The notes beneath the pieces are model-generated. The model made no database searches and was not told the origin of the DNA. It saw only the letters and a program-made list of their open reading frames with translations. A program made the position numbers and the translations under genes. Below are positions 30,620-43,035 of a stretch of 64,000 nucleotides of DNA, in pieces. Positions within the stretch are counted from its first letter, which is position 1; each line of letters opens with the position of its first letter. This stretch comes from Promethearchaeota archaeon. Its GTDB lineage: Archaea > Asgardarchaeota > Lokiarchaeia > Sigyniarchaeales > SOKP01. The stretch spans positions 518,310 through 582,309 of the forward strand of contig JAHPZA010000009.1 of assembly GCA_019058445.1 (NCBI GenBank), given 5' to 3'.

Positions 30620-30634
30620 TATATAAAGAAAAAA
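30620..30634 (-). promoter_or_regulatory. Island promoter motif TTTTTTCTTTATATA
   Basis: About 52 nt upstream of ATG 30567. Confidence 0.65.
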
Positions 30635-30846: not shown

Positions 30847-32178
30847 TTAAGGCTCATTGATATGAGGTGGTCCTTTACCCATTTTAAATTTTAGTAGTTC
30901 TAACTCAAACATCAAATCTCCCTTGTGGAATTTGATTCTCCGAGCAAAGTCCCATTTGGAAAGCTCATTATTAATGATAGAAGGCTTTAAAGATATCAAG
31001 ACCGCTCCTCGATTCCCTTGACAAATGGCATATAAAAAACATTGAGAATCATTTATATTACATCGTATATTTGCTCCCCCTTTAAGCTTTACATCTATAA
31101 TTTCGGGGGGAAGGCCATCTTCTGAAGATTTAGATGTACTGTATCGTAACAATCCCATTTTGTCTATAACCTTTTTTAATAAATCGGTAGAATTAATAAG
31201 GGTCGTAAATCCAGGGATCTTAAACTGTTCAAATATTCTTTTTTTCACTTGTGATTGAATGGTACTCATTTTAATTCCTAGTCTGGTACATATTGAATTC
31301 ACGGTTACCTTTGAAGAATTAAAGGCGCATAATAATGAAATTGAACAGACTAATCCAGCGATTACGTCATCTTTTGTATTTTTAATAGCGTCCCATAATT
31401 TATAAAGAATAAATTTTGAATGGTAATAAAAATCCATTCCTAAGTTAAAGTGCTCTGAAATTTCTAAGATTTTTTGTACAATATATTGCTTTCTATTCCT
31501 TTCCTTATATTGAGGGATATAATTTTGAAATTGCAGCTTAAACCAATTAAATTCTTTTTTAGTAATCTTAGATACTTCCAATAGCTCAGCCTCATGAATA
31601 GAAATATTCTCAAATTTACATACAAAATAAATGGTTATCGGGATTAATTTATCAGGAGCTCGGTACTTAGTTCCTGGATGGAGACATGCGCGTAATTTTC
31701 TAAATTTATTTAGTACAATATACTTGAGAGAGCTGGGAAGATTTAGCATTTCGAAAATTCTTGTTACTTCGAGTTTGGCATTTAATAACACAGTGTCTTC
31801 GTTATCTCTCATAGTATGAAGTTTATTTAGCTTATCTAACTGCTTCGAATTGCTATTTCGAAATCTCTCGTACGCACTCCCGATTTGGGTAGTTCCAAGT
31901 GTGGCATGTTGCACCACATCGCTATTATAAGGTCTATGATATTCTAGCTTTTGGATCTCTAAGACCACGCCGCACGAACGACATACATAGCCTTCTGTGG
32001 TTTCTTTAATATCAACACTATTACAAATATCACACTTTAAACCCTCATAGGGTGCACTAACTTTTTTTAACATATTTTTAGATGCCTCTCTTTGAAAAGT
32101 CCTGTGGCTCATATCCGATAATTCTTTTTTTGCAGCCATTTTCTTATCACTTTTTAAGTCTTTTTTTTTAATAATCAT
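30847..32178 (-). CDS. tfb: Divergent transcription initiation factor IIB (TFB) paralog with C-terminal extension
   Basis: Zn ribbon CDIC-x14-CRSCGVVLE, shortened B-reader, linker 'L.KL..', two cyclin repeats (ITIYFVCK; VIAGLVC), terminal HTH 'VTVNSICTRLGIKMSTIQSQVK'. Confidence 0.8.
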   Translation of the reverse strand: MIIKKKDLKSDKKMAAKKELSDMSHRTFQREASKNMLKKVSAPYEGLKCDICNSVDIKETTEGYVCRSCGVVLEIQKLEYHRPYNSDVVQHATLGTTQIGSAYERFRNSNSKQLDKLNKLHTMRDNEDTVLLNAKLEVTRIFEMLNLPSSLKYIVLNKFRKLRACLHPGTKYRAPDKLIPITIYFVCKFENISIHEAELLEVSKITKKEFNWFKLQFQNYIPQYKERNRKQYIVQKILEISEHFNLGMDFYYHSKFILYKLWDAIKNTKDDVIAGLVCSISLLCAFNSSKVTVNSICTRLGIKMSTIQSQVKKRIFEQFKIPGFTTLINSTDLLKKVIDKMGLLRYSTSKSSEDGLPPEIIDVKLKGGANIRCNINDSQCFLYAICQGNRGAVLISLKPSIINNELSKWDFARRIKFHKGDLMFELELLKFKMGKGPPHINEP

Positions 32179-32203
32179 CCTATCTTAATTAATAATAGGA
32201 GGG

Positions 32204-32225
32204 AGTGTGATTTTTAAATCTCACT
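32204..32225. promoter_or_regulatory. Imperfect palindrome overlapping the putative TATA of the tfb paralog
   Basis: AGTGTGATTT-TT-AAATCTCACT (9/10 match), 26-47 nt upstream of the tfb start. Confidence 0.45.
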
Positions 32226-32642
32226 ATTGTTAAGACTATCATAGTGGAAAATTGGAATTATAACTAAATTTATGAAATTTGGCCCCAAAATCAGAATTTG
32301 TACTATTAAATCCAAGATTCATAATAAATCTAATTAATATAGGAGAGCTAGATGTGTAGTTTTTTGTGAGAAAATAGCAACTTACAACAAATAATATGCA
32401 ATACCCAAAATTATCTTTAATAAAAGAAGCCATCAACTTCATTTAAGAAAAAATCCATTCGGCTCTTGCTTAGGGTTTGAATTAAGGTAATATCTTTGAG
32501 TTTGCAAAACAGAGGACATCAATATATCCAAAATAAATAAGAAATATTAGTGAAAAATACAATCTTTCGACAAAAACCAGATTAAATTAATCGCTCTTTT
32601 TCATCACTATATAAAGCATAAATTTAGGAAAGAGTATAATTA

Positions 32643-32656
32643 TTTTTCTTTAAATA
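32643..32656 (+). promoter_or_regulatory. Island promoter motif TTTTTCTTTAAATA
   Basis: About 21 nt upstream of ATG 32678, consistent with a leaderless transcript. Confidence 0.55.
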
Positions 32657-32677
32657 TATTTGTAGGATCTGTTTATT

Positions 32678-33088
32678 ATGATGACATGTCAAAAAATTTC
32701 AATTCAAGCATTAAATACTACGTTGAAATGTACGATTTGTAGAACCGACATTAAAGATAACTCATCAGTATACCAATCTAAAAACAATTATGGGATCATA
32801 TGCGGAAGGTGTTATCAAAAATTTACGGAAGAAGATATTGAACTTATGTTGATCCTTTTTCTGACATATGGAGGATACTTCGGACAGCTACCTAAAGATC
32901 AATTCTCTTTTTTTAAGACTCTTAAGGAAATTCATAATAAGACGAGTATAAATGATAATTCCTCCCAAATAGTAGAGATAAATATGCGATTATTACATAA
33001 GTCATTACTTCATGGCCTATATCCTGAGCAATATCAAGCAAAACTCAGGAAACTCATTAATTCACCAGGGTGTAGCTACGTTTTATAA
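32678..33088 (+). CDS. Zn-finger (CxxC...CxxC) protein
   Basis: CTIC...ICGRC treble-clef-like motif followed by a helical domain. Confidence 0.6.
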   Translation: MMTCQKISIQALNTTLKCTICRTDIKDNSSVYQSKNNYGIICGRCYQKFTEEDIELMLILFLTYGGYFGQLPKDQFSFFKTLKEIHNKTSINDNSSQIVEINMRLLHKSLLHGLYPEQYQAKLRKLINSPGCSYVL

Positions 33089-33183
33089 TTTATTTTTTCT
33101 TACCTGAAGAGATTTTGTGTTCATTTTTACTCAATTTCTCTTCTTTTTCTTTATTTTTCATTTTTATAAGATGTTTAAAAGGA

Positions 33184-33199
33184 TTTTTTTATTTATATA
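33184..33199 (+). promoter_or_regulatory. Island promoter motif TTTTTTTATTTATATA
   Basis: About 21 nt upstream of ATG 33221. Confidence 0.55.
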
Positions 33200-33220
33200 T
33201 AACGATATAAGAGAAACAAT

Positions 33221-33442
33221 ATGGTATTATTAAGTAGTTTTAGCGATATTTCTGAGGGAATAGAATTTCTCATCGCAGTTGGATCTATTGTAGGATTGCT
33301 TGGATTCATATTAGGGTTAATCTTTTTCTTACTTGGTGGTTCAAGATTGCGAATGAAAATGTTAGCAGTGATATTGACCTCATTAATCCTTATGAATATA
33401 TGTGGAGTGTACACGGGTACCAAATATTTTCGCTTATATTAG
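33221..33442 (+). CDS. Small two-TM protein, VirB2/TrbC/CedA1-like pilin candidate
   Basis: 73 aa: amphipathic N-terminal helix, TM1 (FLIAVGSIVGLLGFILGLIFFLLGG), short basic loop (SRLRMK), TM2. Confidence 0.55.
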   Translation: MVLLSSFSDISEGIEFLIAVGSIVGLLGFILGLIFFLLGGSRLRMKMLAVILTSLILMNICGVYTGTKYFRLY

Positions 33443-33493
33443 TTTCTTTTTTTCAAAGCTTCTATAGATGATATTGATTTCTTAAAAAGTGTG

Positions 33494-33859
33494 TTAATGA
33501 TATCCTTTTGGAGCAGGATCTGTCGTTCCTACACTGCCTGGCATAAGGAATATTCCTCCAAATGAAAGCAAAACACCTCCCAAGATCATAAAAATCAAAG
33601 CTTTTCCAGGATTCAGGTTAAAAAATGAGAGAACTCCAAGGAGTATAAAGATGAGCCCAACAAAGACTAAGATATTTCCAATCGAATTAAAAATGAATCT
33701 TAATATGGTTCCAATTTCATATCGGAGATTACTCCCAAAAATAGGAAAATAGATTGCCAAGAAAAATATAATCCCAAAAAACACCCAATATACATACTTT
33801 ATCTGATCTTGTTTTTTTCCAAAAAATATGGTATTATCTATAAAAGGTATTGTTATCAC
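33494..33859 (-). CDS. Small three-TM membrane protein
   Basis: 121 aa with three hydrophobic helices. The last two resemble a pilin-like hairpin. Island motif at 33886-33901. Confidence 0.6.
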   Translation of the reverse strand: MITIPFIDNTIFFGKKQDQIKYVYWVFFGIIFFLAIYFPIFGSNLRYEIGTILRFIFNSIGNILVFVGLIFILLGVLSFFNLNPGKALIFMILGGVLLSFGGIFLMPGSVGTTDPAPKGYH

Positions 33860-33885
33860 CTTTTACTCCGAAACTAGTACGAATC

Positions 33886-33901
33886 TTTATAAATAAAAAA
33901 A
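33886..33901 (-). promoter_or_regulatory. Island promoter motif TTTTTTTATTTATAAA
   Basis: About 26 nt upstream of GTG 33859. Confidence 0.5.
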
Positions 33902-34011
33902 GAAAGAAAATTTTTTCGCTACCATTTTTTACAGCTAATCCCTTTATTATTAACCACATGTTTAATTAATTTGAAAAATTATGTACACAAAAACCGATCT
34001 AATCTTTAGTA

Positions 34012-34293
34012 ATGAGTGAAGAATATCGCTGCCCAGATCCAGAGTGCAACAGTACTAATGTAAAAATCGAAAAAGAGACTTTTCGCTGCTTAGAGTGCGG
34101 TATCATAGGCTCAAAAACCCACCACTGTCCCCGATGTAAGAGAAAATATTTAATGGATTTTGATACCATAGTGGAATGCCCGATATGCAGATTGGAATTT
34201 GAAAAAGCAGATTTTGAAATATTTAGCGACGATGATGATATTTTATCGCTCCAAAAAAAACAAGAGATTAACAAGGTATTGCGAGAACCCTAG
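34012..34293 (+). CDS. Small multi-Zn-ribbon protein
   Basis: CPDPEC, CLEC, CPRC, CPIC: four Cys pairs in 93 aa. Confidence 0.7.
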   Translation: MSEEYRCPDPECNSTNVKIEKETFRCLECGIIGSKTHHCPRCKRKYLMDFDTIVECPICRLEFEKADFEIFSDDDDILSLQKKQEINKVLREP

Positions 34294-34430
34294 GTTTATG
34301 CTTTCGAGTTTCTTTTTCATAATCAAGTTTCTTTATTTTAACGATAATCATTAAAACGTTTTCCTATAACTATTGAAGTGATCCCCTGCGATTATAATAT
34401 AAGAATAAAAATATAAACCTAAAAAAGTAT

Positions 34431-37400
34431 TTACTCCAGTGTTAGAGAGGATTTAATTTTTACACCACACCCCGGACAATATAAGGAGTCCGATTCAATC
34501 TTAACCCCGCAATATTCACATGTTTTTGTAGCATTAATTTCTAAGTGTTTTTTTAGTTTATGATAAAAGTCAGAGTATAGTTCATACGCACTAACTACTT
34601 TTGCTTCTAGATCTAAATCGTGTTCTTGAACATTATCACAATAATTTAGGTAATAATACAGTTGCTTTTGAGAAAAGGGAAGTTTCTGATATGAAATAAG
34701 TAGATTATAAAATAAATTAAAATCATTTTGAGTAATTCCTTTTTTTGGACCAGAGTTTATCTGATGATAAACTCTCATAAAAAGTGATTTAATGCAGACT
34801 TTTTCAATTTTGAGTGCAGCCCGTAAATCTTTTTCGGTGATATGTTTGTAAATTTGAAATATCTCATAATAAAAAGTCTTTAGTTCTTTGACTAATATTT
34901 TATGAACAAGATCATTTTCAAAAATGCGAATAGATGTAATATCCTTAGTTCGGTTCTTATTTTGGAAGGGTTGTTCAGAATTTTGCTCAATAACTTCCAC
35001 TGAGATGTCAGTTGTCTGTTCCTTTTTTGTTTGGAAATAATCATCAAGCGCAATTTCATAATGTTCTCCTACTTGATAAGAAGTTCGCATGGTTTCTTGC
35101 CCCGATGCACTTTTAGGATGGGCCTCTACTAAATATCTTTGTGTAATGAGGATATTATAGAGTTCTTGTTTCAACTTTTTCAATTCTCGTCTATCATCAG
35201 TAGTCATTTTTGCCTTTTCATGAATCACTTTTTTTAGGGCATCCTTGATCTTTCTCTCAGAAATGGGAAGTTTATGCACAACTTTTAATCCATCTAAAAA
35301 AGTAATGATCTCAGGGATAAATTGCGAAAATTTTCCGAAATCTTTTTCGAATATAGTCTTCCTGGTGCGTTCTATAATGCGCCTTTCAGTCAATTGGAGA
35401 TCATATCCTTGTTCTCTCATGAACGCTGCAATCTCGTCCATAGACAATGGTAGCACTCTTAATATATCAGCTACTTCAAATTTTACTGGAAATGTTTGAT
35501 TTACATCATCCCTCTTTACTAAAATTTCAGTTGATTTCATATTCTTAAGGTATTCTACTTGATAGGTATCCTTGCGAGATTTACTATAATACCCGGTTCC
35601 ATGCAGTTCTTGAAGACCCATGATGTTTTTTAACACATTAATATCACGATAATCAGTGGCTCGAAACGTCATGATGTTTTTAAATAGTTTTAAGAAATGA
35701 GGATGCATATAATGCATTTGATTAGCCATTATCACCGTTCCAAATCCCTCACGTCGTAGCGGTTCGAAAAATTTATCGATGCTCCCTAAATCTAGATATT
35801 TATCTAATGACCTTTCATCAAACACCAAATCAAGGTGCGGCAAAAACAGCACTTTTTCGCAAAATTCATCATATTTGGAGATATAATGGATGATTTTGGA
35901 TACAATGACTAAGGTTAAGAAATTCTTTTTTTTCAAGTCGTTTGAATTAGACAAGTCAATAATGACAGTTTTGTTATCTGAGATAAAAGATTTAAAGGTG
36001 ATCGTTTGCTTTTCTCCCTCTAGGTTACTATGAAAAAAGATTACTTCATCTTCTGTGAAATCCTCGAACATAGAGATGAGCTCCTCGACATGAGGATATT
36101 TCTTCCATGACACTTGATTCTTGAGCTCTAAAGCTAATGAAGCCAAAGTTAAATCACTATGTTCTTGGATAAATTTCTTCAGCCTGTCAACGGAAGATCT
36201 ATCTTTTTTAAAAGTGAGCCTATATGCGTCATATATATACTCTAAATAATCGGTATTGTTCTTTCCATATAATAAATCTGAGCTTAAGGGATCTATACTA
36301 AAAGCATTACCCATTTTAAAATGAACAATATCAAATTTGTAATTAGCATCTTTAAAAAAGGGAATTAACCTGGACCATTGCCCGCTATAATCAAATATAA
36401 GAGAAGGAACTCCTTGCTTGATTAACTGAATTACTATTTTCATAGCCAATAAATCCCTTTCCTGAGCAGTGCCATTGACAAGCAATACATTATCTATTTG
36501 ATCTCTGGTAAGTCCCGCAGGAATCTCTTTCTGCCAGAACTCGGTATTAATAGTGTGACCAAATGCTATAAAATTTTCAAGGTTTAACGGTGTATTAAAT
36601 TCGGCGGCTAGTTTAGTTATGATTCCTTTTTTAAACTCATCTTCAATCCCGGTAAGCCGCATTAACACCTTACCTTGAAGTAAGAGATATTGCAAATAAG
36701 TGCCTGAAAGGTTGTACAATTTATTCTTTAAAATTTCGCAGAGACATCCTGAAATAAGTTTCTGTGAGCTCAGAGGAGTAGTGTAAAACTCATCCAGCCG
36801 GGCGGTAAGCCTATCTTCTAAAAATGTGATATTTTTCTGAGCAATACTTGCCAAGCTAATATAATCATGTTCTGTAATAAAATCTATTTCTTCAAATGAT
36901 TTGTAGGCATATGTGGAAGCAGTTAAGATTACTTGCCACACCCCCGAACGAATTTTAAGCCAACGTTCCCCTTCTTCATTACTGGTAAGATAAAATTTAA
37001 GCATGTCTTGTGTATGGGTGTTTAATTTATGATATGCGATTTTATCAAAGCGATAAAAACTAAGGGGGCTGGCCATTGCAGTGTAGACAAAAGGAATTTT
37101 TCTCTCAATTAATTCTAAATAAAATTTATTGGGGTAAAAATCGACAATCCTAACCATATCTTCATTATATCGAAATCTTACTGCTGCATGATGAATATTA
37201 ACCATTTTTTCGCATACCAGCAACTTATTATGGATGAGAAAAAAGAGCGCATCTAAGATTCCCTTATGTTGAAATACTTGTATACCTTGAAAGGGATTAA
37301 GGATAGAGACACCTTCTCTTTTTAATAGATGATATGCTGATAAATAATAAAGCGGCTCTCTCCACCACACCCAAAAGATAAGAAATAACAAGCACAAGTC

Positions 37401-38375
37401 TAGTAGCGCAATAATCCAAAAGGTAATGTTTAATAACCATAAGAATGTTGAGATTGTGATAAGTACAAAAATGCAAAAAGCCACTTTCATAATATAGGAA
37501 CTTATACTAATGCTTGGTTTTAAGACTTCCATCTGTTTTGGAACGGAATAGGGAATGTCGCGTATAACAAATGACCTGAGCGCATGAATTAATTGATTTC
37601 TAGATAATAATTGCATGTGATAATGATGAAAGTCACCTACAAAATCAGCGCGCATTGAATCAAGAAACCGCTCAAATAATTCTTGGAGGATTGTAAATTT
37701 TCGAGAGGTAAGTATTCCCGAGATATCATAATAGGTTGCAAAATAAATGGCCGTTTGAAAAGATTTCATTGTTCCATTATGCTCTTGAGACAAATATTCT
37801 TTAAAATTTCCAGAGGAATTACTTGAAATAAGAGGCTGTTGATGGATCTGAAATGTATAGGGCATAGCATGTTTATTGAGCACTTTTATGTATTGATTTA
37901 AAGTAGCTTTTGTTGTTTCAGGGAGAGCACCAACTTTAAAAATGCTGAGAGCCACTGTCTTTAACTGCTCTTTATTAGTAATATATAGCACATTAGCAGC
38001 AGCATCTGCAAAAAAAAAAGTAAAATCCGTAAACAAATTCACTTTTCGATTTTTATTAAACAGTGAAGAAACTCCCATTCTCAAGCCGAATATGGTGTCT
38101 GAAAAAACAATCACAAATAAAATTACGGTAATAATTCCCACTAACAGCCCTATTAAAAGATGAGAGCCAGTAAGATATAAAGCGACAATAAAAAATACAG
38201 CAATGATGATAACTGAAAGTCCTTTTATGCTCGCATAGATTGTATTTATATCTGTAAATGATGGATTACTGTCCCATATATCTAAATAATTGCGTTTACG
38301 AGGCTGTTGTTCAGCCGTCCCTTGTGGCTTGTTGGCAAGAAAATGATCCGAATTGAGGGATTTACTTTTACTCAC
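34431..38375 (-). CDS. Membrane-anchored HerA/VirB4/FtsK-superfamily protein with degenerate Walker A/B and C-terminal Zn ribbon
   Basis: Two N-terminal modules, each with 2 TM plus an alpha/beta domain. HerA-like core 'NVLLVNGTAQERDLL...GVPSLIFDYSGQW', 'TVIIDLS', 'LRREGFGTVIMANQ'. C-terminal CEYC..CPGC. Confidence 0.7.
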   Translation of the reverse strand: MSKSKSLNSDHFLANKPQGTAEQQPRKRNYLDIWDSNPSFTDINTIYASIKGLSVIIIAVFFIVALYLTGSHLLIGLLVGIITVILFVIVFSDTIFGLRMGVSSLFNKNRKVNLFTDFTFFFADAAANVLYITNKEQLKTVALSIFKVGALPETTKATLNQYIKVLNKHAMPYTFQIHQQPLISSNSSGNFKEYLSQEHNGTMKSFQTAIYFATYYDISGILTSRKFTILQELFERFLDSMRADFVGDFHHYHMQLLSRNQLIHALRSFVIRDIPYSVPKQMEVLKPSISISSYIMKVAFCIFVLITISTFLWLLNITFWIIALLDLCLLFLIFWVWWREPLYYLSAYHLLKREGVSILNPFQGIQVFQHKGILDALFFLIHNKLLVCEKMVNIHHAAVRFRYNEDMVRIVDFYPNKFYLELIERKIPFVYTAMASPLSFYRFDKIAYHKLNTHTQDMLKFYLTSNEEGERWLKIRSGVWQVILTASTYAYKSFEEIDFITEHDYISLASIAQKNITFLEDRLTARLDEFYTTPLSSQKLISGCLCEILKNKLYNLSGTYLQYLLLQGKVLMRLTGIEDEFKKGIITKLAAEFNTPLNLENFIAFGHTINTEFWQKEIPAGLTRDQIDNVLLVNGTAQERDLLAMKIVIQLIKQGVPSLIFDYSGQWSRLIPFFKDANYKFDIVHFKMGNAFSIDPLSSDLLYGKNNTDYLEYIYDAYRLTFKKDRSSVDRLKKFIQEHSDLTLASLALELKNQVSWKKYPHVEELISMFEDFTEDEVIFFHSNLEGEKQTITFKSFISDNKTVIIDLSNSNDLKKKNFLTLVIVSKIIHYISKYDEFCEKVLFLPHLDLVFDERSLDKYLDLGSIDKFFEPLRREGFGTVIMANQMHYMHPHFLKLFKNIMTFRATDYRDINVLKNIMGLQELHGTGYYSKSRKDTYQVEYLKNMKSTEILVKRDDVNQTFPVKFEVADILRVLPLSMDEIAAFMREQGYDLQLTERRIIERTRKTIFEKDFGKFSQFIPEIITFLDGLKVVHKLPISERKIKDALKKVIHEKAKMTTDDRRELKKLKQELYNILITQRYLVEAHPKSASGQETMRTSYQVGEHYEIALDDYFQTKKEQTTDISVEVIEQNSEQPFQNKNRTKDITSIRIFENDLVHKILVKELKTFYYEIFQIYKHITEKDLRAALKIEKVCIKSLFMRVYHQINSGPKKGITQNDFNLFYNLLISYQKLPFSQKQLYYYLNYCDNVQEHDLDLEAKVVSAYELYSDFYHKLKKHLEINATKTCEYCGVKIESDSLYCPGCGVKIKSSLTLE

Positions 38376-39247
38376 TGAGACACCACTACCGCTTTTTTCG
38401 AGTATTGTCTATAGAGCAGAAAAAAGAAAGATCCTGTTCCAAAAAATAATAAAGTAAAGAGGCTCATTTGTGCGGTGAGTTGGGGATGATAGATAGTTTG
38501 AATTGCCACTATAACTCCAAGCATTAAAAACAGTAGAAGTAGTCCAAAAATTAAATATCCAAAAATATTGGGTATGGAACACTGATATATAAGATTATCT
38601 TTAAGCTTTCCTCGAAGCATAATTTTTCCGCCATCATACTGCTGCATGGCATGCTTCGCATTTTTAAATGCAATCATTTTTTCGAACTTCTCTCTGTCGT
38701 ACTCCTCATTAAGCTCTTTTTGCAGCTGCCCTTCTTGCTCTTGAAATCCATGCATTATTACCTCTTTTAATTTCTGATGGTTAAGTTTTCTTTTAGAGTG
38801 AACAGTATTCCCCGAAAAAAATGAAAATGCTCTCATTTCGCTATTTTGAGCAATCACTTCCAGATCTAACTTTTCAAATAAATTTGGAATTTCTAATGTT
38901 CTAAATTCATAAAAAAACTCATATATTTGAGAAATTAATTCTAAAGGAATATTTCCTCTGTTTTTACTAAATAAAAGTTCAGTTGTTTTAATTGATTGAA
39001 TGGCATCTTCTTGAAATAAATAGATTTTAAAATTATGATGTAAAATCGAATTGACTAAATGCATATACTGAAAAATCGTCTCGTTTCCTTCTTTATTTCT
39101 TGGACGAATCCCTAATTTCACTCCAATTTCATCTAATACATTTCCAACCAAAAGCAACCCAACAGTTGCTAATTTTCGGTAGTTATGTGTCTGCTTGCAC
39201 ACTCTAATAAGGCTTTTTAATTTGATATCAATCAGTTCATAGTTCAT
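38372..39247 (-). CDS. Soluble helical domain plus two C-terminal TM helices
   Basis: 291 aa; 4-nt overlaps with both neighbours (translational coupling). Confidence 0.65.
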   Translation of the reverse strand: MNYELIDIKLKSLIRVCKQTHNYRKLATVGLLLVGNVLDEIGVKLGIRPRNKEGNETIFQYMHLVNSILHHNFKIYLFQEDAIQSIKTTELLFSKNRGNIPLELISQIYEFFYEFRTLEIPNLFEKLDLEVIAQNSEMRAFSFFSGNTVHSKRKLNHQKLKEVIMHGFQEQEGQLQKELNEEYDREKFEKMIAFKNAKHAMQQYDGGKIMLRGKLKDNLIYQCSIPNIFGYLIFGLLLLFLMLGVIVAIQTIYHPQLTAQMSLFTLLFFGTGSFFFLLYRQYSKKAVVVSQ

Positions 39248-39990
39248 ATTCTTTGCCTCCTTTTTGTTAATTGTTGAGGATATTCCTCCAGCTCTTCAAG
39301 GTAATCCAAAGACTCATCATTAAATTTCAATTTTAATTGCTCTCTGGCAATTAATGTATCCATATCAATTGGTTCTTGGACATCGTTAATATATTGCGAA
39401 ACCTTCTTTTTAGCGGAATATTCTTGAGAACGGAATCCTGTGACAGTATAATAATAAAATATCGCGTAAGGAAATACGAAAATAAAGCTTAATAATTGAG
39501 CGAAATATCCAGGACCTATTGAATAGTGATATATCAGTTCTGTATCTTTATCTTTCACAAGTAAAAAAGGGAAATAGAGATCATTAGGAAGTAAATAGAA
39601 GACGGGAAATGCGAAAATATAAAACAGCATAAGTATAAGCAGAAACATATTTGCATACGCATGGAATGTTAATTTTTCAAGCGGATCGTATTGTTCCACA
39701 TCTCGAAAGATGACGGTATAAGCTGATACAACCAGTATTATAATATATAGTATTGTTAATGCGATAGGAATCTGAAATGTTTTCGGTTTAAGAGTATAAT
39801 TGAACGTTGAATTCTCAGAAAATAATGTCGTCCATCCTGTAACAGGATTATAGCTCCAATACGATTTTAAGCTGTTGTGAGAGTCATATACTTGATATAT
39901 ATACCACTCTAAAAAAAATGACACAAATGCAAAAAGTAGCCCCAATACATACATTATCCGAAAATACTGACGAGTTTTAGCTGTTATCAT
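39244..39990 (-). CDS. Four-TM membrane protein
   Basis: TM1 'LGLLFAFVSFFLEWY', beta-rich loops, 'SIGPGYF' before TM4 (claudin-like topology). In an operon with the ATPase-like gene. Confidence 0.65.
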   Translation of the reverse strand: MITAKTRQYFRIMYVLGLLFAFVSFFLEWYIYQVYDSHNSLKSYWSYNPVTGWTTLFSENSTFNYTLKPKTFQIPIALTILYIIILVVSAYTVIFRDVEQYDPLEKLTFHAYANMFLLILMLFYIFAFPVFYLLPNDLYFPFLLVKDKDTELIYHYSIGPGYFAQLLSFIFVFPYAIFYYYTVTGFRSQEYSAKKKVSQYINDVQEPIDMDTLIAREQLKLKFNDESLDYLEELEEYPQQLTKRRQRI

Positions 39991-39997
39991 TTCCCAA

Positions 39998-41815
39998 TCA
40001 ATCCTCCAAAAAAGTACTATATTTTGAAATCATTTGACCTCTCACTGAATTTTCTTTTAGTCCACTAGAAGTATTATTCTCTCTAATGCTAATCTTTTCT
40101 TCATTTTGGTATGAGACAGAGCTAATATTTTCATTTTGTAATGGAAAATCATACCCCTCAATATCCTTTTGAGTTTCAAGGGCTTTAATGCTTTCGATTT
40201 CCTTAATAAAAGAGAATTCACAAGATTTCCCGAACCATTCATACAAGATTTGGTCAAGTTCATGGGAACTCATGGTATCTTGGATACTCAATAAGTCAGT
40301 CTCATCCAATTCAACGGGTTTAAGGAAGTAAGGTGTTTTATAATCATTTTTGAGATTTTTTCGTGTTTTTGCAAACGTTCTATAAACAAATCCCATAATA
40401 ATCCCATAAATAATGAGAGCAGCGACACCTAAATTGGTAAAGGTAGCTAAAATGTAAAAATTTTGCAAGAACATTATTCCTAAAAAAATAACGCCAAACA
40501 TTAAAACGGGTATCGAGTATTTTTGAAGATTGTTCTTTAAGTTGATAAGCGATTGATTATATTTTACTAGAGCATTCTCTAGTAAAAATGATTCTCTAAT
40601 TGAGATTTTTTTTTCTAAAAATTGCACCAATGATATTATTTCTCTACTCTCTACAACGTGTATATTGAACTTGCGCTGGTATGGAAACAGAGCAGTTTTT
40701 TCTAAAAACGCAGGTTCACTTATACTCACTAATATTGGATGGATAACTGGTTTATATTCTTTCGAATGAGTACTAATAAATAAAGGAGTTCCGTTTTTTG
40801 TTTTTCTTATCACTAAACTCCGTTTTGCTAATTTTTTGCGAATTAATTGAAATAAAGACCCTTCATTGGTAATATTTTCAAATACCTCTTTTTGAGCAGA
40901 TACCAAGCACTTTTGAGATATTTCAACTTTCGCATGGGTAGGTTTATAAGTAATATGATTCTCAGAAACCAATAGATTACCTCGCAATTGGCTTATCTTC
41001 ACTGGAAAAACTACCAAGGTTCCTATAGACTTATTTACTTCCAATATTTTATAAGCTAGTATATCAATATCTTTTAAGATATTCCTAAGCAAATTCGATT
41101 GTTTGTCAAGAATGGCATAACCTAAATGCTTAAATCTATTTACAACTGTTTTTTTCACTTGCATAAGATCTTTTTTACTCACTATTTCCTCATGAACTTT
41201 TTCAGAACCCTTTACTTCATTTGGTTTAAGGGCTTCTGAAGCCAGTTCCTCGTTCTGTTTTTGAAGCAGTAGCTCATTTTCAATAAAAGCCTCCAATTCC
41301 TCTACAGCACGATCTGATTTAGGAATAAATGCAGAGTTATATGTATTTTCTTTAGCACTTGAACTTCCAAAAATAGGGTAATCATCATTTTCAACAGGCA
41401 AGAATTTCTCATCTTTAAAATCCTGAACTTGAGACTCAACTAACTCTTGAAAGGATCCTTCCAAAGGTTCTTCTTCTCTTAAGAATGATAGATGGTCAGA
41501 GGTGACTTGTTCACCTTTAATTTCTGATATATTCTCAAGAATGGGCGTGCCTTGAGATTTATCAGGGTTCTCCTCTAAAATCGCTTCATTAATACTAACA
41601 TCATTATGTTTACTAAACTCTTGTGCATTTTCAATAATTTTTTTTGAGGTTGCGAGCCCGAATCCATTAACTTTCGATAATTGTTCAGGAGTAAGGGCTA
41701 CCAATTGTTTAATACTAGTAATTCCAGCACTCACTAATTTATCTTTGATATACTCTCCAATACCTTGAATATTTGTAAAATCATATTCTATTTCCATTTT
41801 TTCCACCAAGTCCAA
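39998..41815 (-). CDS. Membrane-anchored protein with N-terminal tandem HhH DNA-binding domain and degenerate PD-(D/E)xK-like domain
   Basis: 'IQGIGEYIKDKLVSAGI...LSKVNGFGLATSKKII' (RadA-N/HhH), acidic linker, 'FKHLGY...DIDILAYK...FPVK', two TM near residues 435-480. Confidence 0.65.
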   Translation of the reverse strand: MDLVEKMEIEYDFTNIQGIGEYIKDKLVSAGITSIKQLVALTPEQLSKVNGFGLATSKKIIENAQEFSKHNDVSINEAILEENPDKSQGTPILENISEIKGEQVTSDHLSFLREEEPLEGSFQELVESQVQDFKDEKFLPVENDDYPIFGSSSAKENTYNSAFIPKSDRAVEELEAFIENELLLQKQNEELASEALKPNEVKGSEKVHEEIVSKKDLMQVKKTVVNRFKHLGYAILDKQSNLLRNILKDIDILAYKILEVNKSIGTLVVFPVKISQLRGNLLVSENHITYKPTHAKVEISQKCLVSAQKEVFENITNEGSLFQLIRKKLAKRSLVIRKTKNGTPLFISTHSKEYKPVIHPILVSISEPAFLEKTALFPYQRKFNIHVVESREIISLVQFLEKKISIRESFLLENALVKYNQSLINLKNNLQKYSIPVLMFGVIFLGIMFLQNFYILATFTNLGVAALIIYGIIMGFVYRTFAKTRKNLKNDYKTPYFLKPVELDETDLLSIQDTMSSHELDQILYEWFGKSCEFSFIKEIESIKALETQKDIEGYDFPLQNENISSVSYQNEEKISIRENNTSSGLKENSVRGQMISKYSTFLED

Positions 41816-41854
41816 AATATCTCATTTTAGTATACTTGTAAAATCTATTCTTAG

Positions 41855-41869
41855 TATATAAAGAAAAAA
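41855..41869 (-). promoter_or_regulatory. Island promoter motif TTTTTTCTTTATATA
   Basis: 40 nt upstream of the four-gene membrane operon, in a divergent intergenic region. Confidence 0.65.
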
Positions 41870-42219
41870 TGGATGCATGAAATGACTTTCTGCCTTAAAA
41901 AGGGACCAAAAAACCATTATAAAAAAATACCATAAGATTAGTGGTTTTCACTAAATTAACAGATAGAAGCATTATAATTGTAAGGTAAAGGGGCTTAAAA
42001 AAGCCCCCTGACTATGTCAAAAACAGACTAAAAACCGACCAAAAATAGAGATCATTAGGAAAACAACTAAAATCCTTTTTTTTATGAGAAAAAGCATGAA
42101 ATTTTGTTGATAAATTAAAACAGTTCCTAAATTTACTGATTTTTCCTCCATTTGAGGATTAATTAGTATGATTTTAGAATAACGATCAATAAAAAAATCA
42201 AATAAGTTACAAATCCCTC

Positions 42220-42234
42220 TTTTTTGTTTAAATA
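42220..42234 (+). promoter_or_regulatory. Island promoter motif TTTTTTGTTTAAATA
   Basis: 21 nt upstream of ATG 42256. Confidence 0.5.
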
Positions 42235-42255: not shown

Positions 42256-43035
42256 ATGTATGATATGTTTATCATTTTGATGTTTTTTCCAATCATTTTA
42301 GTGATTTCATATGTAATTACCCGTTTTATGATGAGGATAGATTACGGTCCATTTAATGTAGTTCTTTTAATTTTACGTTTTGTCGGAGTCGCCATTCACG
42401 AACTAAGTCATTTAATCATGTGCCTAATTGTAGGGATCCGACCAAAAGGAATCAGCATTCGTCTGCGATCCGAATTCACTGGAAGAGTAGATCCGAATGG
42501 TGAGGTACGACCAGATTTGCATAACGGCACATTCTTACAGGCATTGTTAATTTGTTTTGCACCAACAATTATTCCGACTTGGTTATTTTTCTGGTCGCTG
42601 GCAATTGTTTTTGCTACCGATCCTATTCATCCATTTATCCGGATTATTGCCGGATTTCTTTGTATCTCTAATTTCTTTGGCGCTACTCCTTCCAAGCCGG
42701 ACTTTTTAATTGTTGGCCAATGGTTTAAAAAAAATCCAAAGTATTCACTATATCAGCTTGGACTCTTATTTCTTTCAGGATTGGGAGTATGGGTCATAGT
42801 GAATTATTATTACATTATGTTGCCTTATGACATTGTCTATTACATCTTAGTTGGGATAGGATACTATGTTCTGAAATATAGTTTTCGAGTGATTACGTGG
42901 GTATTAAATAAACTCCTCTTGTTACACAATCCTCATCGAGCCACCTTTCCACGTATTAAATATGGGAGATTTATTAGACGACGGTTTAAACCTTCTAAAC
43001 CCTCAAAAACTGGAAAAAGAGAAGCTCCATGGTAA
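42256..43035 (+). CDS. Membrane zinc metalloprotease (M50/M50B-like)
   Basis: GVAIHELSH (HExxH) within a TM context, 'FAP', 'PSKPD' third-ligand motif, multiple TMs. Confidence 0.75.
   Translation: MYDMFIILMFFPIILVISYVITRFMMRIDYGPFNVVLLILRFVGVAIHELSHLIMCLIVGIRPKGISIRLRSEFTGRVDPNGEVRPDLHNGTFLQALLICFAPTIIPTWLFFWSLAIVFATDPIHPFIRIIAGFLCISNFFGATPSKPDFLIVGQWFKKNPKYSLYQLGLLFLSGLGVWVIVNYYYIMLPYDIVYYILVGIGYYVLKYSFRVITWVLNKLLLLHNPHRATFPRIKYGRFIRRRFKPSKPSKTGKREAPW

What the first reader, a model, noticed from the sequence alone, without database searches (positions are those of the whole stretch)
30847..32178. Divergent TFB with a rewired BRE-recognition helix and a ~130-aa C-terminal extension
The Zn ribbon and both cyclin repeats are kept, but the terminal HTH reads VTVNSICTRLGIKMSTIQSQVK versus the canonical archaeal TQREVA..AGVTEVT(I/V)RNRYK that contacts the BRE. 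The B-reader is shortened and an extra C-terminal domain follows. Unlike the truncated Sulfolobus TFB3, it could bind DNA itself. Inference: it is the factor that reads the T-rich element. Its own proximal promoter lacks the motif, as expected for a master switch.
Basis: partly seen in the sequence, partly recalled or inferred. Interest (0 to 1): 0.8.

Follow-up and report, generated by a model that had tools for sequence, protein, structure and literature searches.

The report
Divergent TFB inside T-rich-promoter gene island
An Asgard (Lokiarchaeia-type) archaeon encodes a very divergent copy of the general transcription factor TFB, with an altered DNA-reading helix and an extra tail. The gene always sits among DNA-repair and membrane genes whose promoters carry an unusual T-rich box, so it is probably their dedicated switch, but no binding has been shown.

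Summary
The ORF at 30847-32178 (-) is a real, conserved gene, although its true start is probably M14 (ATG at 32139), giving 430 aa. It encodes a full-length but very divergent TFB. It has a four-Cys Zn ribbon, a reader/linker about 20 aa shorter than usual, two cyclin repeats (Z 17.6 to P. woesei TFBc, 1D3U_B) and a terminal HTH. A family-specific tail of about 125 aa follows and has no confident fold.

The recognition helix reads GIKMSTIQSQVK where this genome's 13 canonical TFBs read GVTEVTIRNRYK; both Arg are replaced by Gln. It is the most conserved stretch of the family.

The T6-C-TATA motif clusters beside all three full-length paralogues in this genome. In 29 other genomes, 31 of 119 exact copies lie within 30 kb of the gene, against 3 expected. 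The TFB's own promoter is a conserved purine-rich BRE/TATA without the motif.

The link remains circumstantial. Assemblies with no detectable TFB keep the motif, but their contigs break before the expected site. Sister families show T-runs alongside very different TFB helices. There are no binding data.

The scan found this family before on other DNA (e1-5425577, e1-5425579). I class it as a new variant of a known kind.

The parts
30847..32178 (-). ORF of the divergent TFB as given (443 codons plus stop). The probable real CDS is 30847-32139 (430 aa, start at M14).
   Evidence: start inferred from the homologue alignment and the conserved SD/start context
31972..32034 (-). Zn ribbon, residues 49-69 (CDIC...CRSC)
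   Evidence: four Cys invariant in 60 sequences; Pfam PF08271 E 4e-4
31804..31953 (-). Shortened B-reader/B-linker region, residues 76-125. It reads EYHRPYN...LGTTQIG..ER in place of PEWRAF...R.R.G.P...HDKGLST.I.
   Evidence: low pLDDT over residues 76-99
31519..31803 (-). First cyclin-like repeat, residues 126-220
   Evidence: AF2 helices 126-220; Pfam TFIIB repeat E 2.6e-3; human TFIIB phmmer E 6e-5
31231..31494 (-). Second cyclin-like repeat, residues 229-316, ending in the HTH
   Evidence: AF2; superposes on 1d3u_B with Z 17.6
31231..31311 (-). Terminal helix-turn-helix, residues 290-316 (VTVNSICTRLGIKMSTIQSQVKKRIF). The recognition helix is residues 304-316 (31231-31269).
   Evidence: alignment to canonical TFBs; LGIKMSTIQSQVK is the most conserved 13-residue window of the family (0.89); retained in f1 members that are only 34% identical overall
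31144..31230 (-). Conserved post-HTH segment, residues 317-345 (G323, F324, L327, S330 and L334 invariant; extra helix 331-340)
30850..31143 (-). Variable linker plus beta-rich C-terminal tail, residues 346-443. The near-invariant K435-G-P437-P438 lies at 30865-30876.
   Evidence: a profile of the tail finds only proteins of the same architecture or fragments among 1.84 billion representatives
32211..32228 (-). The gene's own proximal promoter: purine-rich BRE-like AATAGTGAGA (32219-32228) plus TATA box TTTAAAAA (32211-32218)
   Evidence: the same BRE/TATA architecture is conserved upstream of about 25 orthologues and both paralogues
32137..32150 (-). Shine-Dalgarno GTGAT (32146-32150) and probable start codon ATG (32137-32139)
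30620..30634 (-). Exact T-rich promoter 15-mer TTTTTTCTTTATATA, just downstream of the TFB stop codon. It drives the 897-aa alpha/alpha-toroid surface protein, which is a conserved neighbour.
32643..32656 (+). T-rich promoter TTTTTCTTTAAATA of the divergently transcribed 136-aa Zn-finger gene (32678-33088)
   Evidence: both paralogues of that gene elsewhere in the genome also carry the motif

Best explanation
The gene encodes a lineage-specific, full-length but highly divergent paralogue of the archaeal initiation factor TFB.

Shown:
- It has an RNAP-docking-type Zn ribbon, a shortened reader, a two-cyclin core that superposes on DNA/TBP-bound TFBc, and a terminal HTH.
- The recognition helix has both canonical arginines replaced by glutamines (MSTIQSQVK). 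This helix is the most conserved part of the family.
- The gene is embedded in a conserved chromosomal cluster of recombination/repair and membrane genes. The promoters of that cluster carry T5-6-C exactly at the BRE position, abutting the TATA box.
- The gene itself is transcribed from a canonical purine-rich BRE/TATA promoter.

Inferred:
- Housekeeping TFB switches this gene on, possibly under a repressor or activator acting on the upstream dyad seen in orthologues.
- The product then binds TBP-bent promoters through its altered HTH. It prefers the T-run/C element (A-run on the template strand).
- It recruits RNAP through its Zn ribbon, so the dispersed regulon fires as a unit, much as a bacterial alternative sigma factor would.
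- The family-specific C-terminal tail is the likely regulatory or partner-binding part.
For: Identity as a TFB:
-.
- 1d3u_B Z 17.6, rmsd 2.9 A, 198/201 residues.
- invariant Cys.

Rewired and constrained helix:
- alignment against this genome's canonical TFBs (eight were aligned). All 12 full-length ones keep the (T/A)E(V/A)T(I/L)R core and the second Arg is usual.
- this is the top-conserved window of the family.
- it is kept in members only 34% identical overall.

The motif is real and clustered:
- 5 of the 7 exact 15-mers in 4.6 Mb lie in this window.
- 9 of 9 loose matches in the window precede an ORF, against 39 of 104 elsewhere.

Link between motif and gene within this genome:
- PWM hits within +-10 kb of the other copies are 5 (P0027), 2 (C6 paralogue) and 3 (C1 fragment).
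- About 0.37 is expected at each.

Link across genomes:
- 31 of 119 exact 15-mers lie within 30 kb of a family gene in 29 other genomes.
- At most 3.0 are expected, Poisson p 4e-21; kin are not independent.

Conserved synteny with motif-driven genes.

The motif is conserved at 45-50 nt before the ATG in most of 29 orthologous promoters, with variable flanks.

Canonical own promoter in orthologues and paralogues.

Regulon content.

Position: the T-run occupies the 7 bp immediately upstream of the TATA box. That is where CLR/HTH2 of TFB/TFIIB inserts into the major groove (PMC4581349; PDB 1D3U).
Against: - There is no binding, structural or expression evidence.
- At least 11 of the 14 f1 assemblies without a detectable family member keep the motif at the w48989 orthologue. 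In at least 13 of the 14 the gene lies too near a contig end for the expected TFB site to be assembled; the ends were fetched for five and judged from coordinates and locus ends for the rest, with G264 unresolved. This neither refutes nor supports.
- A paralogous module on contig C7 carries the motif (pilin-like genes and a paralogue of the Zn-finger gene). It lies beside a TFB-GTPase fusion with a canonical helix.
- Orthologous promoters in sister families f2-f4 also have T-runs next to the TATA box, while their TFB relatives have very different helices, for example ITASTVYSHIKN.
- About three quarters of exact 15-mer copies are not near the gene.
- A T-tract could act through DNA shape rather than base reading.
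- The shortened reader might impair initiation.
Confidence: 0.5

Rival explanations
1. The protein is a TFB-family paralogue that belongs to the island regulon, or modulates it, but does not read the T-run. It could act as a co-activator alongside a housekeeping TFB, like Sulfolobus TFB3, or be tuned for another promoter set. The T-run would then be read by another factor, for example one of the small Zn-finger proteins of the island. Alternatively it acts as an A-tract DNA-shape element that strengthens TBP/TFB binding in general.
For: The motif persists in assemblies where the gene was not found. T-runs occur at the orthologous promoter in sister families whose TFB relatives have very different helices. 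Motif-bearing paralogous genes on C7 lie beside a TFB with a canonical helix. The island encodes several conserved Zn-ribbon proteins that themselves sit behind the motif.
Against: The recognition helix is the most conserved part of the protein. That is hard to explain if it reads nothing specific. The T-run lies exactly at the BRE position. The motif clusters beside each paralogue.
Confidence: 0.3
2. The protein is not an initiation factor. Instead it is a decoy or scaffold built on the TFIIB/cyclin fold. It might sequester TBP or RNAP, or be an Orc6-like DNA-replication/repair adaptor, which would fit the repair genes around it.
For: All family HMM scores fall below the curated cut-offs, and there is a weak Pfam hit to ORC6_2nd at E 0.019. 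The neighbourhood is rich in DNA-repair genes.
Against: The Zn ribbon has invariant Cys, and the LGTTQIG..ER linker motif is retained. Orc6 has no Zn ribbon. TFIIB/TFB structures score far above Orc6 and cyclins. The HTH is conserved.
Confidence: 0.1
3. It is an archaeal counterpart of the eukaryotic TFIIB-related factors that carry C-terminal extensions (Brf1, Brf2, Rrn7/TAF1B). In that case it would be a true forerunner of polymerase-specific factors.
For: It has the same overall layout: ribbon, two cyclin repeats and an extension. JGI annotates homologues under COG1405 'Brf1/TFIIB'. Brf1 and Brf2 structures are among the fold hits at Z 13-16.
Against: TFIIB/TFB score higher than Brf. No Pfam Brf1 or Rrn7 domain is found in the tail. 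The tail is confined to this family. The clade is restricted to one order, and mainly to one family, of Lokiarchaeia. Archaea have a single RNAP (established knowledge).
Confidence: 0.03

Closest known systems
Archaeal TFB / eukaryotic TFIIB (e.g. Pyrococcus woesei TFBc in PDB 1D3U/1AIS)
   Same: N-terminal Zn ribbon, two five-helix cyclin repeats and a terminal HTH. The core superposes on 1d3u_B with Z 17.6 over 198 of 201 residues.
   Different: Sequence scores are below every curated family cut-off. The recognition helix has R->Q at both Arg positions. A tail of about 125 aa is found only in this family.
Alternative TFB paralogues with their own gene sets: Sulfolobus acidocaldarius TFB2 (cell-division genes; bioRxiv 10.64898/2026.09.06.749720), Sulfolobus TFB3 (UV response, Ups pili and Ced DNA import; from my own knowledge), and haloarchaeal TFB families (cited in that preprint as Turkarslan 2011)
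   Same: It is an extra TFB beside housekeeping copies and appears dedicated to a functional module. As with TFB3, the module concerns DNA exchange and repair genes.
   Different: TFB2-responsive promoters have BREs similar to TFB1 promoters and differ in spacing. Here the BRE position holds a different, pyrimidine-rich element, and the HTH is re-written. TFB3 is truncated and lacks the DNA-binding core, whereas this protein is full length with an added tail. TFB2 occupies its own promoter, whereas this gene's promoter lacks the motif.
Bacterial alternative (ECF-type) sigma factors
   Same: The proposed logic is the same: a paralogous initiation factor with altered promoter-element specificity turns on a regulon. 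TFB CLR/HTH2 on the BRE is the structural counterpart of sigma region 4 on the -35 element (PMC4581349).
   Different: It belongs to a different protein family context, with TBP-dependent recruitment. No anti-factor has been identified, and the function is untested.
Brf1/Brf2/Rrn7 (TFIIB-related factors with C-terminal extensions)
   Same: Ribbon, two cyclin repeats and a C-terminal extension.
   Different: No sequence similarity in the extension. The fold match is lower than to TFIIB/TFB. The organism has a single RNAP.

Membership tests
TFB/TFIIB family (Pfam PF08271 + 2x PF00382; NCBIfam PRK00423) | N-terminal four-Cys Zn ribbon | tested here: met
   C49, C52, C66 and C69 are invariant in 60 homologues. 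PF08271 aligns to residues 48-77 at E 4e-4, although 20.3 bits is below the 29-bit cut-off.
TFB/TFIIB family (Pfam PF08271 + 2x PF00382; NCBIfam PRK00423) | Two cyclin-like five-helix repeats in the TFIIB arrangement | tested here: met
   The AF2 model has pLDDT 80-94 over residues 126-340. 1d3u_B gives Z 17.6, rmsd 2.9 A and 198/201 residues aligned. The Foldseek top 30 are all TFIIB/TFB/Brf.
TFB/TFIIB family (Pfam PF08271 + 2x PF00382; NCBIfam PRK00423) | Scores above the curated family thresholds | tested here: not met
   PF00382 scores 18.2 bits against a 23.6 cut-off, and only for repeat 1. PRK00423 scores 18 against 384. A profile of the family finds no PDB sequence at E 1e-3. The protein is a structural and architectural member but a sequence outlier.
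TFB/TFIIB family (Pfam PF08271 + 2x PF00382; NCBIfam PRK00423) | Canonical B-reader (EWRAF helix plus loop) and B-linker | tested here: not met
   EWRAF is replaced by (Y)HRPY. The loop is about 20 aa shorter. Only an LGTTQIG..ER linker-like motif is kept.
TFB/TFIIB family (Pfam PF08271 + 2x PF00382; NCBIfam PRK00423) | C-terminal HTH with the conserved TQ+E...VTEVT(I/L)R.RYK signature | tested here: not met
   The HTH fold is present (helices 293-300 and 304-316), but the sequence is VTVNSIC..GIKMSTIQSQVK. The 12 full-length canonical TFBs of this genome keep the core of the signature.
TFB/TFIIB family (Pfam PF08271 + 2x PF00382; NCBIfam PRK00423) | Binds TBP-DNA and recruits RNAP | not testable with these tools
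   This needs biochemistry or a protein-DNA complex model.
Alternative TFB with a dedicated regulon (TFB2/TFB3-like, sigma-like) | Coexists with housekeeping TFB copies | tested here: met
   The genome holds 13 canonical TFB genes plus three full-length copies and one fragment of this family.
Alternative TFB with a dedicated regulon (TFB2/TFB3-like, sigma-like) | Associated with a distinct promoter class | tested here: inconclusive
   Co-localisation and synteny are strong. However, the motif persists in assemblies where the gene was not found, in which the gene lies near a contig end. T-runs also occur in sister families with different helices.
Brf1 / Rrn7-type TFIIB-related factors | Brf1 homology blocks or an Rrn7-type C-terminal domain in the extension | tested here: inconclusive
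   No Pfam Brf1 domain is found, and Zn_ribbon_RRN7 matches only at E 0.22. A profile of the tail finds only this family. The tail has no confident model, so its fold could not be compared.
Orc6 (TFIIB-fold replication factor) | Two cyclin-like domains without a Zn ribbon; similarity to ORC6 domains | tested here: inconclusive
   There is a weak ORC6_2nd hit at E 0.019 and human Orc6 matches at Foldseek E 1.3e-2. The protein has a conserved Zn ribbon, and TFIIB matches are far stronger.

The most novel reading that the evidence does not exclude
One Lokiarchaeial lineage has evolved a true sigma-like TFB. Swapping the two base-reading arginines of the BRE-recognition helix for glutamines would re-specify the factor from the purine-rich BRE to a T6-C element. 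The factor is produced from a canonical promoter and carries a private regulatory tail. This would be the clearest case of BRE re-specification by a TFB paralogue, found in the archaeal group closest to eukaryotes.
Probability: 0.4. Interest if true: 0.8.

Novelty: new variant of a known kind. Interest (0 to 1): 0.6.

Why it matters
Archaea often carry many TFB and TBP paralogues, but clear examples where a paralogue reads a different promoter element are scarce. In the best-studied case, Sulfolobus TFB2, the BREs look similar and only the spacing differs. Here the pairing is explicit and testable: a strongly conserved R->Q recognition helix and a sharply defined T6-C box at the BRE position. 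Both are maintained together across about 100 genomes of an Asgard family.

If the pairing holds, it would give three things. First, a simple in vitro system to study how TFB/TFIIB specificity evolves. Second, a regulon map for an uncultured Asgard lineage, apparently covering DNA exchange and repair. Third, a parallel to the way eukaryotes diversified TFIIB-like factors with C-terminal extensions.

If it fails, the finding is still a well-delimited, lineage-specific TFB subfamily with a private C-terminal module.

Tried and rejected
- Complex prediction of this genome's TBP (C4 copy, residues 15-205) with the cyclin core (residues 122-345) returned 'no answer' with score 0.00. This is no evidence either way.
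- The look-up of sequencing runs listed no RNA holder, only sediment and soil metagenome DNA runs. Expression and the TSS could not be examined, and read laying was not used.
- AF2 of the tail alone gave pLDDT 53, so no fold search on it was meaningful.
- The ESM Atlas feature search of residues 318-443 gave no usable hit.
- A profile search of the whole family against PDB sequences found nothing at E 1e-3. The single-sequence search does find TFIIB.
- The phyletic test 'genomes lacking the TFB retain the motif' was tried. Fourteen f1 assemblies have the 183-aa marker gene but no detectable TFB, and at least 11 of the 12 whose upstream I read keep the motif. In at least 13 of the 14 the gene lies too near a contig end for the expected TFB site to be assembled: ends fetched for five, the rest judged from coordinates and locus ends, G264 unresolved. 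I therefore rejected this as a refutation.
- I first read 0 of 266 non-f1 genomes as absence of the clade. A looser search then found very divergent relatives of about 300-490 aa in sister families f2 and f3. 'Restricted to f1' therefore holds only for the MSTIQSQVK-type subfamily.
- I first took G138 (closed genome) as a case where TFB and motif are both absent. That was withdrawn after a search with the G143 protein found two relatives there.
- The sigma-70/terminator scan was uninformative for an archaeon.
Full report
OBSERVATION. The ORF at 30847-32178 on the minus strand is present as described, with 443 codons. Sequence-family searches recognise it only weakly:
- Pfam Zn_Ribbon_TF matches residues 48-77 at E 4e-4.
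- The Pfam TFIIB repeat matches residues 129-210 at E 2.6e-3.
- NCBIfam PRK00423 scores 18 bits against a cut-off of 384.
- Human TFIIB is the best PDB sequence match, at E 6e-5 over residues 103-215.

The gene is nevertheless real and conserved. More than 400 homologues were found, and those that carry a source name are labelled Promethearchaeota, Hermodarchaeota or Lokiarchaeota. The 60-sequence alignment A1 shows four invariant Cys: C49, C52, C66 and C69.

An AlphaFold2 model built on A1 has pLDDT 80-94 across residues 126-340. It shows two sets of five helices plus one extra helix at 331-340. Foldseek returns only TFIIB, TFB and Brf structures at the top. VIA-align puts the DNA- and TBP-bound P. 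woesei TFB core first: 1d3u_B, Z 17.6, rmsd 2.9 A, 198 of 201 residues aligned to model residues 122-334. The Zn ribbon and both cyclin repeats are therefore confirmed.

HTH, READER AND TAIL. The genome (4.6 Mb, 10 contigs; the window is C9:518310-582309) has 13 canonical TFB genes. The 12 full-length ones keep the core of the terminal signature, (T/S/N)Q.(E/K/R)(I/V)...(V/I)(T/A)E(V/A)T(I/L)R...K; the 271-aa thirteenth (C6:28575-29390) is degenerate there.

MAFFT aligns RLGIKMSTIQSQVK of this protein to AAGVTE(V/A)TIRNRYK. The changes are E->M304, V/A->S305, R->Q308, R->Q310 and Y->V311.

LGIKMSTIQSQVK (residues 300-312) is the single most conserved 13-residue window in the family. Its mean column identity is 0.89, against 0.39 for the tail. 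Even f1 members that are only 34% identical overall keep GI.MST(I/V)(Q/N).(Q/R)VK.

Between the ribbon and the first repeat the protein is about 20 residues shorter than canonical TFBs. PEWRAF is replaced by EY.RPY, and the loop ...R.R.G.P...HDKGLST.I is reduced to LGTTQIG..ER.

Residues about 317-443 have no counterpart in canonical TFBs. They comprise:
- a conserved segment (G323, F324, L327, S330 and L334 invariant);
- a variable linker;
- a weakly conserved beta-rich tail ending in K435-G-P437-P438.

Folded alone, this tail gives pLDDT 53. A profile of it finds 126 representatives among 1.84 billion proteins. All have the same architecture or are short fragments. It is therefore a private module of unknown fold.

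TRUE START AND OWN PROMOTER. Homologues begin MA(T/S)..., and many use TTG as the start codon. In this window a GTGAT Shine-Dalgarno sequence (32146-32150) precedes the ATG at 32139-32137 (M14). The protein is therefore probably 430 aa.

Upstream lie TTTAAAAA (32211-32218) and a purine-rich AATAGTGAGA (32219-32228). In about 25 orthologous loci the same architecture is conserved: GAGGAAAAGG-TTTAAAA, about 56 nt, then GTGATC and the start codon. In genus g11 it is preceded by a dyad, GAGAAGAAGCCTTCTTTTC.

Both paralogues in this genome have the same purine BRE/TATA. No T-rich motif lies on the gene's strand within 300 nt in any of about 28 loci. A divergent motif for the neighbouring gene is common. 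The statement 'own proximal promoter lacks the motif' is confirmed and holds family-wide.

THE MOTIF AND ITS LINK TO THE GENE. The exact 15-mer TTTTTTCTTTATATA occurs 7 times in 4.6 Mb, and 5 of these are in this window. The 15 sites listed by the first stage (note e1-5498848) align as T5-6-(C/A/G)-TTTA(T/A)A(T/A)A, immediately upstream of genes.

All 9 loose matches in the window are followed by an ORF within 130 nt, against 39 of 104 elsewhere. In general, TATA boxes in this genome have a slight A preference upstream, so T-run promoters are a minority class.

Within this genome, a matrix trained on the window finds hits within +-10 kb of the other family copies as follows, where about 0.37 is expected at each:
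- 5 near P0027 (C9:389349-390683);
- 2 near the C6:683969-685264 copy;
- 3 near the 117-aa fragment at C1:92370-92741.

Across genomes, the MSTIQSQVK-type subfamily is found in 96 of 134 genomes of one GTDB family (f1). It is found in none of 266 other Asgard genomes at E <= 1e-40. In 29 other f1 genomes, 31 of 119 exact 15-mer copies lie on the TFB contig within 30 kb. At most 3.0 are expected, giving Poisson p 4e-21. Sixteen genomes contribute, but related genomes are not independent.

The neighbourhood is syntenic in about 25 of 30 loci. The 897-aa alpha/alpha-toroid surface protein lies downstream, and an M50B-like membrane protein plus a 106-aa gene lie upstream and divergent. A 183-aa gene with its small-GTPase operon lies 8-24 kb away in at least 38 genomes. 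The promoter of that operon keeps TTTTTTCTTTA(A/T)ATA, mostly 44-51 nt before the ATG, in most of 29 loci, while its flanks vary.

Genes behind the motif include:
- an Arf/MglA-like GTPase operon;
- elsewhere in the genome, a Rad51/RadA-family protein next to paralogue P0027 and a type IA topoisomerase.

This looks like a DNA-exchange/recombination regulon. In function it recalls the TFB3-dependent UV response of Sulfolobus (my own knowledge).

WHAT WEAKENS THE LINK.
1. Fourteen f1 assemblies have the 183-aa gene but no detectable family TFB, even with a family-specific query. At least 11 of the 12 whose upstream I read keep the motif. In at least 13 of the 14, however, the gene lies too near a contig end for the expected TFB site to be assembled. 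I fetched the ends for five and judged the rest from coordinates and locus ends; G264 is unresolved. Four genomes at 97-99% completeness lack both the TFB and the 183-aa gene. The 2x2 counts are 77 (both present), 20 (TFB only), 14 (183-aa gene only) and 24 (neither).
2. On contig C7, paralogues of the pilin-like genes and of the 136-aa Zn-finger gene carry the motif. They lie beside a 512-aa TFB-GTPase fusion whose helix is canonical.
3. In sister families f2-f4 the orthologous promoter also has a T-run next to the TATA box, for example T10-GC-TTTTATAAAC, which occurs twice in 20 kb of G143. Their relatives of this TFB are very divergent. The G143 protein is 411 aa, lies 2.4 kb from the 183-aa gene, and has helix ITASTVYSHIKN. 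This could be co-evolution of helix and element, or it could mean that the T-run is older than the Q-Q helix. More distant families (f19, f21) have no T-run there.
4. There is no expression or binding evidence (see Tried and rejected).

PLACEMENT. A quick ML tree separates all canonical TFBs from a fast-evolving clade (SH-aLRT 99). That clade holds the f1 subfamily, which is monophyletic at 100 on a stem of 1.81, together with the divergent f2/f3 proteins. Long-branch artefacts cannot be excluded, and no eukaryotic sequences were included. Three TBP genes exist in the genome, none of them in the island.

COMPARISON WITH KNOWN SYSTEMS. [quoted passage not shown] It is the counterpart of sigma region 4 on the -35 element (PMC4581349). 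The T-run lies exactly in that position.

Dedicated TFB paralogues are already known. S. acidocaldarius TFB2 drives division genes, occupies its own promoter, and its target BREs look like those of TFB1 but with different spacing (bioRxiv 10.64898/2026.09.06.749720). Asgard viruses and mobile elements also encode TFBs (bioRxiv 10.1101/2021.07.29.453957). This locus, however, is a conserved chromosomal cluster, and I saw no integrase or capsid genes in it.

I found no paper describing this subfamily. The scan itself reported the same kind of gene and promoter class on other genomes (e1-5425577, e1-5425579). Those notes agree with the present reading but are not independent evidence.

VERDICT. 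The protein is a divergent, full-length TFB whose constrained and re-written recognition helix and genomic behaviour fit a dedicated initiation factor for the T6-C promoter class. The reading step itself is inferred. I put about 0.5 on that mechanism, 0.3 on a regulon-associated TFB that does not read the T-run, and 0.1 on a non-initiating role. I class it as a new variant of a known kind, with interest 0.6.

Noticed in passing
own genome, contig C7:45191-46729 (-), outside the window: A 512-aa gene fuses a canonical TFB (helix GVTEATIRKRYK) to a C-terminal Arf/MglA-like small GTPase. The GTPase part is 53% identical to the GTPase at window 49563-50204. The gene is divergent to a paralogue of the 136-aa Zn-finger gene, which sits behind a T-rich promoter (C7:46848+).
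   Followed up: partly
own genome, contig C1:92370-92741 (+): A 117-aa protein consists only of the first cyclin repeat of this TFB family (36% identical to residues 102-214). T-rich motif hits lie about 470 nt upstream.
   Followed up: partly
own genome, C9:392107-393339 (+), beside paralogue P0027 (C9:389349-390683): A Rad51/RadA-family protein with its HhH domain at the C-terminus (411 aa) lies behind two T-rich motif copies. A type IA topoisomerase (C5:63781-65949) also sits behind the motif.
   Followed up: partly
loci L012-L038 (orthologues of the TFB in other genomes), about 20 nt upstream of their BRE: A conserved dyad, GAGAAGAAGCCTTCTTTTC, precedes the canonical BRE/TATA of the TFB gene in genus g11. 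It is a candidate operator for whatever controls the TFB. In this window a different inverted repeat, CACTAT-N13-ATAGTG (about 32223-32247, minus strand), occupies that place.
   Followed up: no
window 32179-42220: In about 25 other genomes the TFB is directly divergent to the M50B-like gene (window 42256-43035). This genome has about 10 kb inserted between the two. All of these transcription units except the 93-aa gene sit behind T-rich promoters.
   Followed up: partly
window 32435-32455 (-) and 32239-32442 (-): A motif-like T7-C-TTAAATGA, with one base missing from the TATA box, lies about 300 nt upstream of the TFB start. It overlaps the ATG of a 67-aa hydrophobic ORF. It is below the matrix threshold and its significance is unknown.
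   Followed up: no
own genome, C4:14.5 kb, C4:298.5 kb and C3:97 kb: The genome has three TBP genes alongside 13 canonical and 3 divergent TFB genes. That is a large combinatorial set of initiation factors for a 4.6-Mb archaeon.
   Followed up: no
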